DNA of 64,000 nucleotides, from the sequence record OK428535.1; one strand, 5' to 3'. The stretch comes from Escherichia phage vB_EcoM_Lh1B. The first letter of the stretch is position 1, and every line of letters begins with the position of its first letter. The position numbers and the translations under genes were made by a program. Below the pieces are notes generated by a model. It ran no database searches. It saw only the letters and a program-made list of their open reading frames with translations, and was not told the origin of the DNA. Below are positions 13,509-14,861 of this stretch, piece after piece.

Positions 13509-14861
13509 ATGGGACACNGGNAAAANNANANAANCCCNTTGGCNNNCGNNAAANCCGNGGCCNCNGAANCCNNNGNNTTCNAAAAAAAAAAAAAANNCCC
13601 CTNTTTGGNGGNAGNGGNANGNANGTTNCGTGNTGCGGGNGACTTCTCGCCAGNGGGTTATCAGAGTTCTGGTATTGCTGCCTGGGTCTTTGACAACAAC
13701 GGTATTACAGTCCTGCCTCGTAACGGGTCCGACTTAGGTGTGGCGGACGTTGTGTTTGCGGGTGTGGAGCCGCCGAAGCTCGATGCGAACAACCCAATCA
13801 TCGCCGACCTGCAACGCAAGATGGTGCAGGGTAACACCGACCTGGATGTCTACAGTAAGTTCTTAAAAGAGAACGAACTGAACGGCGAGTTCGACGATAA
13901 AAATGCGAAGCTTTCAGGCGAACTCAGCAAGGTGCCGTCCCCACTTTGGCTGACCCCGAAACTACTGACCAGTATCGACTTAACGGATTTAGAAGTCGCG
14001 GCGATTATTCTACATGAAGTCGGCCACGTCTATTACTATTTCCGTACCTTGATGCGTACGGTGGTAACGAACCTGATTGCGGATGCTGCAGCGAACCGCA
14101 TGATGCAAACCGAAGACCCGACAGTGCGTTTGAAAGTCGTAAAAGACGTTGAACGTATGCTGAACACCAAAGTGAATCAGCCGGAAACTATCTGCAAAGA
14201 GATGTCTAAAGAGAACATCTACATGCATCTGGTGACGGACATTCTGCTTGAGCGTCCATTTGTTACCGGTTCGGAAGGGTTCGCTAACCGTACCTGGGAA
14301 CGTGCTGCAGATGACTTCGCAGCTCGCTTTGGTGCAGCCCCGTACCTGGCGTCAGCCCTGTACAAAATCGAAACGTCCCAATTCTATCTCTGCCGGAACG
14401 CGTCGTACATGAACTACGGTGTGCATCTGATGCTGGAAATGCTTAACGTTTCGCTGCTGATTGTGGCTTCGACTAATCCAGTTGGCCTGTTCTTCACGAC
14501 TATCTCGGTGGCGTTCGGTCTGATTGTGAACGACCCACGCAACACCATCTACGATCCGCCGCAGGAACGTTTTGAGACGATGCGTCGTAACTTAGTGGAA
14601 GAGCTGAACACCTTAAAAGGTAGCACCACGAAAGAAGCGAACGAACATCGTAAACGTATTCTGCAGGGCATTGCGTCTATCGACGAATTACTGAAAACCG
14701 TGAAAGACAAAGACAACGTCTTTAGCTTCATCATGAAAACGCTGACCCCTGGCGGTCGCCGTGAGCGCGCTGGTGTGGATTATCAGCGTACGATGGAGCG
14801 NTATCTTTCTAATGACCTGCGTGTGGCTTCATCAAAGCTAAGCCGGGCTACCGTTTCTTAA
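13509..14861 (+). CDS. putative Zn-dependent metallopeptidase (HExxH) with C-terminal hydrophobic segments
   Basis: AAIILHEVGH motif; hydrophobic stretch VSLLIVASTNPVGLFFTTISVAFGLIV; AAAAGGA RBS; N cluster at 5' end makes start uncertain. Confidence 0.55.
   Translation: MGHXXXXXXXLXXXKXXAXEXXXFXKKKKXPXLXXXXXXXRXAXDFSPXGYQSSGIAAWVFDNNGITVLPRNGSDLGVADVVFAGVEPPKLDANNPIIADLQRKMVQGNTDLDVYSKFLKENELNGEFDDKNAKLSGELSKVPSPLWLTPKLLTSIDLTDLEVAAIILHEVGHVYYYFRTLMRTVVTNLIADAAANRMMQTEDPTVRLKVVKDVERMLNTKVNQPETICKEMSKENIYMHLVTDILLERPFVTGSEGFANRTWERAADDFAARFGAAPYLASALYKIETSQFYLCRNASYMNYGVHLMLEMLNVSLLIVASTNPVGLFFTTISVAFGLIVNDPRNTIYDPPQERFETMRRNLVEELNTLKGSTTKEANEHRKRILQGIASIDELLKTVKDKDNVFSFIMKTLTPGGRRERAGVDYQRTMEXYLSNDLRVASSKLSRATVS

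What the first reader, a model, noticed from the sequence alone, without database searches (positions are those of the whole stretch)
13509..14861. Phage-encoded HExxH metallopeptidase with membrane-like C-terminal region
AAIILHEVGH is a classic zinc-binding HExxH motif, and the C-terminal third has long hydrophobic stretches. Candidate roles are prohead or virion protein maturation, or processing of host envelope proteins.
Basis: partly seen in the sequence, partly recalled or inferred. Interest (0 to 1): 0.45.

Follow-up and report, generated by a model that had tools for sequence, protein, structure and literature searches.

The report
Head-packaged M48-like zinc peptidase, jumbo phage
This gene of a SPN3US-like giant Salmonella phage encodes a known head protein of "unknown function" that is almost certainly a very diverged M48-type zinc protease; the family is conserved in all nucleus-forming giant phages, its phiKZ counterpart tolerated no transposon insertions, and its target has never been studied.

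Summary
ORF 13509..14861 (+, 450 aa) carries HEVGH at 14013-14027 and one ~37-residue hydrophobic segment (aa 304-340). Codons 4-49 contain 38 ambiguous bases.

The window is a SPN3US-like Seoulvirus, and the ORF is the ortholog of SPN3US gp45. gp45 is published as a mid-abundance head protein of unknown function, cut by the prohead protease at ASE-20. The family is Chimalliviridae core gene cg22 (phiKZ gp84, Goslar gp067). phiKZ gp84 had zero transposon insertions in published TnSeq.

Best reading: an active M48-like zinc peptidase, targeted into the prohead by a short cleavable propeptide. It is probably ejected with the DNA and probably works at a membrane. The target and the ejection step are inferred, not shown. 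Main rival: a peptide "clean-up" enzyme inside the maturing head. A few GenBank records already say "M48/peptidase"; no paper I could search discusses it.

The parts
13496..13500 (+). Ribosome-binding site AAGGA, 8 nt upstream of the ATG
   Evidence: Read directly from the sequence.
13509..14861 (+). CDS, 450 aa. Ortholog of SPN3US gp45 (YP_009153339), phiKZ gp84, Goslar gp067 and RAY gp286, i.e. Chimalliviridae core gene cg22 and PHROG 2767.
   Evidence: (PHROG 2767, E=7e-153).
13509..13568 (+). N-terminal propeptide of 20 residues, ending in the prohead-protease site A18-x-E20 (13560-13568). Many bases here are N.
   Evidence: The window reads A-X-E at codons 18-20. Cleavage at ASE-20 by gp245 was shown by mass spectrometry for SPN3US gp45 (PMC10052503 Table 2; PMC5694885). 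E20 is conserved in 140 of 141 relatives, within an [SAG]-x-E|[AS] context. pLDDT is below 60 for residues 1-20.
13569..13880 (+). Family-specific N-terminal alpha/beta region (aa 21-124) with no match outside the family. The new N-terminus after cleavage is the conserved S-I-x-F-Q25.
13881..14378 (+). M48-like catalytic core (aa 125-290). It consists of three short strands (126-129, 134-137, 144-148), the active-site helix 160-199, an inserted helical stretch 204-248, and the third-ligand helix 256-273.
14013..14027 (+). HEVGH: H169 and H173 are the predicted zinc ligands and E170 the general base.
   Evidence: H169, E170, G172 and H173 are invariant in 141 and 146 diverse relatives. The motif aligns to HELGH 335-339 of ZMPSTE24.
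14289..14312 (+). R261-T-W-E264-R-A-A-D268: the M48-type 'E-x-x-[AS]-D' helix. E264 is the predicted third zinc ligand.
   Evidence: E264 and D268 are invariant. The motif aligns to RRFEFQAD of ZMPSTE24, where E415 is the third ligand.
14415..14528 (+). Hydrophobic helical hairpin (aa 303-340; helices 303-320 and 324-340 with a T-N-P-I-G turn). Candidate membrane-inserting element.
   Evidence: Kyte-Doolittle 19-residue maximum is 1.66 here. In 141 relatives the median is 2.22, 96% reach 1.6 or more, and there are 0-2 charges per 34 residues. The sequence itself is poorly conserved. pLDDT is 96-97.
14550..14570 (+). Invariant post-hairpin motif Y348-D349-x-P351-x-x-R354, of unknown role (possibly a second-shell active-site element).
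   Evidence: R354 is 100% conserved, D349 98%, Y348 95%.
14571..14858 (+). Hydrophilic C-terminal helical region (aa 355-450; long helices 351-367, 375-397, 414-433 and 436-449), containing the conserved E430 and N435.
14877..15320 (+). Context: gp46 (147 aa). It occupies the position of phiKZ gp85, an inner-capsid vertex-binding protein.
   Evidence: Synteny. No detectable sequence similarity to gp85.
15317..17050 (+). Context: gp47 (577 aa), an essential SPN3US head/ejection protein with a predicted transmembrane helix. It occupies the position of phiKZ gp86.
   Evidence: PMC5694885.
11654..13438 (-). Context: divergently transcribed gp44, a DNA polymerase fragment. This arrangement is conserved in phiKZ-like phages and in RAY.

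Best explanation
The ORF is the ortholog of SPN3US gp45. I read it as a catalytically competent, highly diverged M48-type (gluzincin) zinc metallopeptidase that is carried inside the phage head. SHOWN in the literature for the ~99%-identical SPN3US protein: it is a mid-abundance head protein, and its 20-residue N-terminal propeptide is removed by the prohead serine protease gp245 at ASE-20. SHOWN here by computation: the zinc-ligand and catalytic residues (H169, E170, H173, E264, plus D268 and R354) are invariant across the whole family; the catalytic core has the M48 fold; the cleavage-site Glu and a ~35-residue hydrophobic segment are conserved family-wide. INFERRED mechanism: the short propeptide works like a T4 capsid-targeting sequence and loads on the order of 100 copies into the prohead. 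The mature enzyme sits among the internal, non-shell head proteins and leaves with the DNA at infection. Its hydrophobic hairpin then anchors it in the host inner membrane or the early-infection (EPI) vesicle membrane. There the M48 domain cleaves an unfolded or membrane-proximal substrate, either a host envelope protein or a co-ejected phage protein, and this step is needed to establish infection. The identity as a head-packaged M48-like peptidase is about 0.9 likely. The 'ejected and membrane-acting' part is about 0.45 likely.
For: Identity and location: 95-97.5% nucleotide identity to SPN3US/SPFM phages, with the same gene order; PHROG 2767 at E=7e-153; gp45 is a head protein processed at ASE-20 (PMC10052503 Table 2; PMC5694885). 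Its spectral count per unit mass is 2.9, against 8.8 and 6.4 for the ~264-copy tail sheath and tube.

Importance: the family is core gene cg22 of Chimalliviridae (PMC10299810 Table S3). There are 2,410 cluster representatives at E<=1e-3, almost all 410-450 aa. phiKZ gp84 has 0 transposon insertions in 1,242 bp, whereas non-essential genes of similar length carry 9-24 (PMC12676376 Table S2).

Ejection and membrane: the short CTS-like propeptide was noted by the SPN3US authors. The hydrophobic segment is conserved in character but not in sequence in 96% of relatives. gp84 and its Goslar ortholog are not mentioned among the proteins modelled in the phiKZ and Goslar capsid cryo-EM structures. The neighbour gp47 is an essential ejection protein with a transmembrane helix. 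From established knowledge, M48 enzymes typically act on membrane or envelope substrates.
Confidence: 0.5

Rival explanations
1. Intracapsid 'clean-up' peptidase. The enzyme acts inside the maturing prohead. After gp245 cuts at A-x-E sites, the M48 domain would digest the released 100-250-residue propeptides and scaffold-like fragments into peptides small enough to leave the shell, making room for DNA. On this view the hydrophobic hairpin is just a buried core element.
For: The protein is in the prohead when maturation occurs, because it is itself cut by gp245. It is more abundant than would be needed for a signalling-type enzyme. Long propeptides are cleared from phiKZ and 201phi2-1 heads. 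Minimal M48/minigluzincin active sites accept unfolded peptides (established knowledge; the projannalysin and proabylysin matches are). AF2 packs the hairpin into a compact fold. The gene is essential and core, like other assembly genes.
Against: Every cleavage mapped in SPN3US heads fits the gp245 A-x-E motif, and gp245 cuts propeptides at several sites on its own. T4-type heads manage with a single protease. A uniformly hydrophobic ~35-residue stretch with unconserved sequence, present in 96% of relatives, is unusual for a soluble enzyme. A short CTS-type propeptide is the hallmark of ejected internal proteins in T4.
Confidence: 0.27
2. Injected anti-defence or host-takeover protease. The enzyme is delivered with the DNA and cleaves a host cytoplasmic defence or housekeeping protein, with no membrane role.
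For: Co-injected head proteins with anti-defence roles exist in phiKZ, for example gp184/Tad1 (PMC12676376). The catalytic residues are invariant.
Against: Anti-defence genes are usually variable and dispensable in laboratory hosts, whereas this gene is core and had zero insertions in PAO1. This reading does not explain the conserved hydrophobic segment. Hosts range from Vibrio to Ralstonia, so the target would need to be universal.
Confidence: 0.1
3. Structural head protein with a fossil protease fold. It serves as a building block or assembly factor, for example associated with the inner vertex complex encoded by the next genes, and no longer catalyses anything.
For: It is annotated as a 'virion structural protein' everywhere. 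It is moderately abundant. It lies next to the gp85/gp86-type vertex-binding genes.
Against: All three zinc ligands, the general-base Glu and D268 are 100% conserved across relatives that share only about 25% identity overall, which is not expected of a dead enzyme. gp84 is not mentioned among the proteins modelled in the phiKZ capsid structure, nor its ortholog in the Goslar structure.
Confidence: 0.06
4. Chance HExxH in a non-peptidase helical protein.
For: HExxH occurs three times in long frames of this window. Pfam is sub-threshold for this sequence.
Confidence: 0.02

Closest known systems
Ste24p / ZMPSTE24 (MEROPS M48A, CAAX prenyl protease)
   Different: Ste24 is a seven-helix integral membrane barrel with the active site inside a chamber. 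The phage protein has only one hydrophobic hairpin, placed after the third ligand. It has about 95 residues between H169 and E264, compared with 80 in ZMPSTE24. It has unrelated N- and C-terminal regions and only 14-17% identity. It lives in a virus capsid.
Soluble and periplasmic M48 peptidases (E. coli BepA/YfgC, PDB 6sar; Geobacter M48 peptidase, PDB 3c37) and the minigluzincins proabylysin and projannalysin
   Same: The minimal catalytic core is the same: three strands, the active-site helix and the glutamate helix. The superpositions are the tightest found: BepA 128 aa at 3.0 A, 3c37 136 aa, projannalysin 95 of 104 aa.
   Different: The phage protein has no signal peptide, lipobox or TPR domain. 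Names transferred in some GenBank records ('beta-barrel assembly-enhancing protease', 'M48 family lipoprotein protease') are over-specific. The phage protein adds about 100 N-terminal and 160 C-terminal residues found nowhere else.
T4 internal head proteins with a capsid-targeting sequence (IPI, IPII, IPIII, Alt)
   Same: It has a short (10-20 residue) N-terminal propeptide ending in x-x-E that is removed by the prohead protease after incorporation. The SPN3US authors drew this parallel for gp45 themselves (PMC5694885). Alt shows that an enzyme can be delivered this way (established knowledge).
   Different: There is no sequence or fold relationship. Ejection of gp45 has not been shown. No T4 internal protein is a protease.
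Prohead maturation proteases of giant phages (phiKZ gp175 / SPN3US gp245, MEROPS S80)
   Same: Both are proteases packaged into the prohead, and both are essential.
   Different: gp245 is a serine protease of the herpesvirus-assemblin/T4 gp21 type, specific for A-x-E. The present protein is a zinc enzyme and is a substrate of gp245, not its homolog.

Membership tests
Peptidase family M48 (Pfam PF01435; gluzincin clan MA) | HExxH zinc-binding and catalytic motif on the active-site helix | tested here: met
   HEVGH at aa 169-173 lies within helix 160-199. It is invariant in 146 relatives and aligns to HELGH of ZMPSTE24.
Peptidase family M48 (Pfam PF01435; gluzincin clan MA) | Third zinc ligand is a Glu on a downstream helix, within the E-x-x-[AS]-D-x-[FY]-A signature | tested here: met
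   R261-T-W-E264-R-A-A-D268-D-F-A lies on helix 256-273. E264 and D268 are invariant. The motif aligns to RRFE415FQADAFA of ZMPSTE24.
Peptidase family M48 (Pfam PF01435; gluzincin clan MA) | Score above the curated Pfam gathering threshold | tested here: inconclusive
   This protein scores 18.0-18.4 bits against a cut-off of 20.3. Among relatives, 20 of 27 and 42 of 110 match, with a best E of 2e-5. At profile level the ZMPSTE24 hit is significant (E=3.2e-5).
Peptidase family M48 (Pfam PF01435; gluzincin clan MA) | Zincin alpha/beta catalytic fold most similar to solved M48 structures | tested here: met
Peptidase family M48 (Pfam PF01435; gluzincin clan MA) | Zinc-dependent peptidase activity | not testable with these tools
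   This needs purified protein, metal analysis and peptide-cleavage assays.
Chimalliviridae core gene cg22 (SPN3US gp45 / phiKZ gp84 / Goslar gp067 / RAY gp286; PHROG 2767) | Full-length sequence homology | tested here: met
   PHROG 2767 at E=7e-153. About 99% identity to SPN3US gp45 over the readable part. BLASTP against phiKZ gp84 gives 8e-22 over aa 128-446. The cg22 assignment is in PMC10299810 Table S3.
Chimalliviridae core gene cg22 (SPN3US gp45 / phiKZ gp84 / Goslar gp067 / RAY gp286; PHROG 2767) | Conserved gene neighbourhood: divergent from a DNA-polymerase fragment, followed by two head genes, then a large virion gene on the opposite strand | tested here: met
   The window, SPN3US, a phiKZ-like phage, phiKZ and RAY all show this arrangement.
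Chimalliviridae core gene cg22 (SPN3US gp45 / phiKZ gp84 / Goslar gp067 / RAY gp286; PHROG 2767) | N-terminal [SAG]-x-E prohead-protease site | tested here: met
   A-X-E at codons 18-20 in the window. E20 is present in 140 of 141 relatives. The site is retained internally in metagenomic fusion proteins. Cleavage was demonstrated by mass spectrometry in SPN3US.
CTS-bearing internal head proteins that are ejected (T4 IP/Alt type) | Short N-terminal targeting propeptide removed by the prohead protease | tested here: met
   Taken from the literature for the ~99%-identical SPN3US protein: a 20-residue propeptide cut at ASE-20. The sequence is present in the window, partly as N.
CTS-bearing internal head proteins that are ejected (T4 IP/Alt type) | [quoted passage not shown] | not testable with these tools
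   No paper in the searchable library reports ejection of gp45, gp84 or gp067.
   No M56 or M78 hit at E<=1 for this protein, nor at E<=0.1 or 0.01 for 27 and 110 relatives.
Integral or anchored membrane protein | At least one hydrophobic segment long and hydrophobic enough to span a bilayer | tested here: inconclusive
   Among relatives the median KD19 is 2.22, and 96% reach 1.6 or more. In this protein KD19 is 1.66 and the summed Hessa scale is +3.7 kcal/mol. The two helices are only 17-18 residues each, and the phiKZ segment is shorter. No dedicated topology predictor was available.

The most novel reading that the evidence does not exclude
The peptidase is a virion-delivered membrane enzyme required for the first, membrane-bound stage of chimallivirus infection. 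After ejection, its hairpin would insert into the invaginating inner membrane. The M48 domain would then cleave a host envelope protein or a co-ejected phage protein, either to form, stabilise or later open the EPI vesicle, or to activate co-injected factors such as the gp47/gp86-type proteins. That would make cg22 one of the first identified virion-delivered enzymes implicated in the EPI vesicle stage, whose formation mechanism the 2025 review lists as an open question (PMC12908238).
Probability: 0.15. Interest if true: 0.85.

Novelty: new variant of a known kind. Interest (0 to 1): 0.5.

Why it matters
Nucleus-forming giant phages (Chimalliviridae) must rely on proteins carried in the virion for everything that happens before their first gene is expressed. 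That includes formation of the membrane-bound early-infection vesicle, whose mechanism is unknown. This gene is one of only 68 core genes of the family. The protein is packaged in the head at roughly a hundred copies, and its phiKZ ortholog tolerated no transposon insertions. Yet it is listed as 'virion structural protein' or 'unknown function' in the papers and in PHROGs.

Recognising it as a probably active zinc protease with a conserved hydrophobic anchor turns an anonymous core gene into a testable enzyme. Point mutants (E170A, H169A), metal chelators and substrate trapping could show whether giant-phage heads need a second protease for maturation, or whether they inject a protease into the host envelope. 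It also corrects over-specific database names (BepA, lipoprotein protease) that have been propagated to some phage records.

Tried and rejected
- **Single-sequence family scans.** Pfam M48 was sub-threshold, NCBIfam gave only a 12.8-bit HtpX fragment, and PHROG 2767 is 'unknown function'. These were not decisive, so I moved to family-level evidence.
- **M56, ImmA/IrrE, SprT and Zincin_1 assignments.** There were no hits or only sporadic ones, so I rejected them.
- **Prohead protease identity.** Rejected: gp245 is that enzyme and gp45 is its substrate.
- **Lipoprotein or periplasmic BepA-like identity.** Rejected: the N-terminus MGHWQKHITS... has no signal peptide or lipobox.
- **Literature.** Searches for gp45, gp84, PHIKZ084, gp084, gp067, and M48 plus jumbo phage found no discussion of a protease function. 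Thomas et al. 2012 (PMC3323674) is not held. The supplements of the PCH45 Tn-seq preprint are not held.
- **Locating the phiKZ ortholog.** My first guess at the phiKZ coordinates was wrong.
- **gp46 versus phiKZ gp85.** No detectable similarity.
- **N-terminal extensions of the metagenomic fusion proteins.** No Pfam or PHROG function.
- **The 141-aa ORF inserted in SPFM4-like phages.** No Pfam hit.

Full report
**What is in the sequence.**
- The ORF runs from the ATG at 13509 to the stop at 14859-14861 on the + strand (450 codons). An AAGGA ribosome-binding site lies 8 nt upstream.
- AAIILHEVGH is encoded at 13998-14027.
- Codons 4-49 (13518-13654) contain 38 ambiguous bases and codon 431 contains one. 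The window as a whole has 280 N in 40 clusters, so it is a low-quality assembly.
- Opposite-strand ORFs under the gene are only 58-72 aa.
- HExxH on its own is not evidence. It occurs three times in long open frames of this window.

**Where the window comes from.**
- The 2-kb region is 95-97.5% identical to Salmonella phage SPN3US and its SPFM, SPLA and other relatives. These are about 240 kb and belong to the genus Seoulvirus.
- The ORF corresponds to SPN3US gp45 (YP_009153339, 'putative virion structural protein 1'). It lies between the divergently transcribed DNA-polymerase fragment gp44 and the head genes gp46 and gp47.
- I used the clean SPN3US sequence, or the 99%-identical P0001, wherever the window has N.

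**What is already published.**
- SPN3US gp45 is a head protein of 'unknown function' (50.3 kDa). The prohead protease gp245 removes a 20-residue N-terminal propeptide at ASE-20. Semi-tryptic peptides show this in virions and in purified heads (PMC10052503 Table 2).
- The authors note that it is the only SPN3US head protein whose propeptide is as short as a T4 capsid-targeting sequence (PMC5694885).
- Its spectral count per unit mass is 2.9, against 8.8 and 6.4 for the ~264-copy tail sheath and tube. I read that as very roughly 100 copies per virion. This is my estimate from semi-quantitative data.
- The family is core gene cg22 of the nucleus-forming phages: Goslar gp067, phiKZ gp084 and RAY gp286, all listed as 'putative virion structural protein' (PMC10299810 Table S3). 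I confirmed the phiKZ orthology by BLASTP (8e-22) and by synteny.
- In the phiKZ transposon screen, PHIKZ084 has 0 insertions in 1,242 bp. That matches chimallin, the capsid protein and its neighbours gp85-88, whereas dispensable genes of similar length carry 9-24 (PMC12676376 Table S2).
- gp84 is not mentioned among the proteins modelled in the phiKZ capsid cryo-EM structure, and its ortholog gp067 is not mentioned in the Goslar virion paper. The next two genes (gp85 and gp86; Goslar gp66 and gp65) form the inner vertex-binding complex (Pfam PF25615 and PF25617).
- None of these papers, and no paper in the searchable library, mentions a metallopeptidase.
- A few GenBank records do carry automated names: 'M48 family lipoprotein protease', 'peptidase' and 'beta-barrel assembly-enhancing protease'.

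**Is it a peptidase? Sequence evidence.**
- Alone, the protein falls just short of Pfam's M48 threshold (18.0-18.4 bits against 20.3). PHROGs calls the family 'unknown function'.
- At family level the picture is clear. A profile search of 1.84 billion cluster representatives found 2,410 relatives at E<=1e-3 and 924 at E<=1e-30. Nearly all are 410-450 aa and matched end to end.
- In alignments of 141-146 of the most diverse relatives (21-67% identity to the query, mean column identity 25%), only seven columns are invariant: H169, E170, G172, H173, E264, D268 and R354. Nearly invariant columns include E20, G137, Y348, D349 and E430.
- H169/H173 plus E264, within R-x-x-E-x-x-[AS]-D-x-[FY]-A, is the M48 zinc-ligand signature.
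- The deep family profile hits human ZMPSTE24 at E=3.2e-5 among 177,635 PDB sequences. It aligns HELGH 335-339 and the RRFE415FQADAFA helix in order. The E336A mutant chain scores 6.5 bits lower.
- Pfam M48 is the only family hit repeatedly by individual members (42 of 110, best 2e-5).

**Is it a peptidase? Structural evidence.**
- A first AlphaFold model from 27 close relatives was mediocre (pLDDT 72.4). Its searches were noisy, although ZMPSTE24, Ste24p, BepA and proabylysin were among the top hits.
- With the 146-sequence alignment the model became confident: pLDDT 91.8 and pTM 0.91, with only residues 1-20 disordered.
- In this model three short strands (126-129, 134-137, 144-148) precede a long active-site helix (160-199). 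The E264 helix is 256-273.
- So the catalytic core (about aa 125-290) has the M48/minigluzincin fold. The N-terminal ~100 residues and the C-terminal ~160 residues have no counterpart in solved structures.

**The 'membrane-like' region.**
- There is one hydrophobic segment, aa 304-340, predicted as a helix-turn-helix (303-320, T-N-P-I-G, 324-340). The last 110 residues are strongly hydrophilic.
- In SPN3US it is only borderline for a transmembrane element (KD19 1.66).
- Across 141 relatives the median KD19 is 2.22 and 96% reach 1.6 or more. There are 0-2 charged residues per 34 residues and almost no sequence conservation. That pattern suggests a lipid-facing element or a fully buried one.
- The phiKZ version is about 5 residues shorter.
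- AlphaFold places the hairpin confidently within a single compact body.
- I therefore cannot distinguish a permanently buried core from a colicin-like arrangement, in which a hydrophobic hairpin is shielded in the soluble, packaged state and inserts into a membrane later.

**How it most likely works.**
- Shown computationally: it has an intact, strongly constrained M48 active site. The cleavage-site Glu is conserved in 99% of relatives, and even internally in metagenomic fusion proteins, where it sits at the junction with a long N-terminal extension.
- Inferred: the propeptide is a capsid-targeting signal and the mature enzyme is one of the internal, non-shell proteins.
- I favour the view that it leaves with the DNA and acts at the inner membrane or early-infection vesicle. 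Four observations point that way:
  - Short-CTS proteins in T4 are ejected.
  - M48 enzymes characteristically work on membrane or envelope substrates.
  - The hydrophobic segment is conserved.
  - The adjacent gp47 is an essential ejection protein with a transmembrane helix.
- The main rival is an intracapsid peptidase that digests the large propeptides released by gp245. This fits the enzyme's presence in the prohead, its abundance and the peptide-only specificity of minimal M48 sites. It does not explain the hydrophobic segment, and no non-gp245 cleavage has been seen.
- An anti-defence role fits poorly with core status and with zero insertions in a laboratory host.
- A purely structural role fits poorly with 100% conservation of every catalytic residue.

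**Comparison with known systems, and novelty.**
- By motif, profile and fold this is a very divergent M48-type gluzincin. It is not a member of any characterised M48 subfamily. It lacks the Ste24 barrel, the HtpX topology, the BepA TPR domain, and any signal peptide or lipobox.
- The packaging mode resembles T4 internal proteins. It is not related to the S80 prohead protease.
- The gene, its head location and its processing are already known, and a peptidase label exists in a few database records.
- What is not in the literature I could search is the family-wide evidence for an active M48 site, the conserved hydrophobic element, and the link to core status and zero transposon insertions.
- I rate it a new variant of a known kind, of moderate interest. 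It becomes high interest if the enzyme turns out to act in early-infection vesicle biology (probability about 0.15).

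Noticed in passing
whole window, e.g. 6524-6975, 12758-12853, 13518-13654, 33324-33440, 36279-36417, 47825-48224: The window holds 280 ambiguous bases (N) in 40 clusters, often near homopolymer runs. 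They put X residues into many ORFs, including gp42, the gp44 DNA polymerase, gp45, gp47 and gp48. The window comes from a low-quality assembly of a SPFM/SPN3US-type phage.
   Followed up: partly
between 14861 and 14877 of the window; L003:4460-4938 (SPFM4): SPFM4-type relatives carry an insertion of about 461 bp with a 141-aa ORF (SPFM4_00035) between gp45 and gp46. It is absent from the window and from SPN3US. The ORF has no Pfam match. It may be a small mobile or accessory gene.
   Followed up: partly
window 4631 and 6796 (+ strand): There are two further HExxH motifs, 'VHEHFH' in a 933-aa open frame and 'VHEHIH' in a 662-aa open frame. They are probably chance, or belong to the polymerase or virion proteins upstream.
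   Followed up: no
window 15317-17050: The gp47 ORF starts at 15317 and overlaps the gp46 stop (ATGA). This equals the mass-spectrometry-corrected start reported in PMC5694885, 12 nt upstream of the RefSeq annotation.
   Followed up: yes
window 14877-15320 (gp46) versus L006:8217-8663 (phiKZ gp85): gp46 has the size and position of phiKZ gp85, the inner-capsid vertex-binding protein (Pfam PF25615). It shows no detectable sequence similarity by BLASTP or Pfam. Either it is extremely divergent or it is a non-orthologous replacement.
   Followed up: partly
proteins P0054, P0066, P0093, P0094, P0121, P0137, P0157 (metagenomic relatives): Several relatives of 800-1,450 aa carry the peptidase module at the C-terminus of a long extension with no known function. 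Where aligned (P0093, P0094, P0157), the x-x-E|[SA] prohead-protease junction is retained internally, so the module would be released by cleavage. P0114 carries the extension at the C-terminus instead. They could also be gene-calling fusions.
   Followed up: partly
window 13569-13583 (codons 21-25) and family alignments A2/A3: The new N-terminus created by propeptide removal, [SA]-I-x-F-Q25, is itself conserved, with Q25 in more than 90% of relatives. It might take part in latency or activation of the enzyme.
   Followed up: no
GenBank records MT679221 (Proteus phage 7), MT661596 (Proteus phage 10), MK994515 (Serratia phage Moabite): Orthologs are named 'beta-barrel assembly-enhancing protease' or 'M48 family lipoprotein protease'. 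The M48 part agrees with my results. The BepA and lipoprotein parts are over-specific name transfers, since there is no signal peptide, lipobox or TPR domain.
   Followed up: yes
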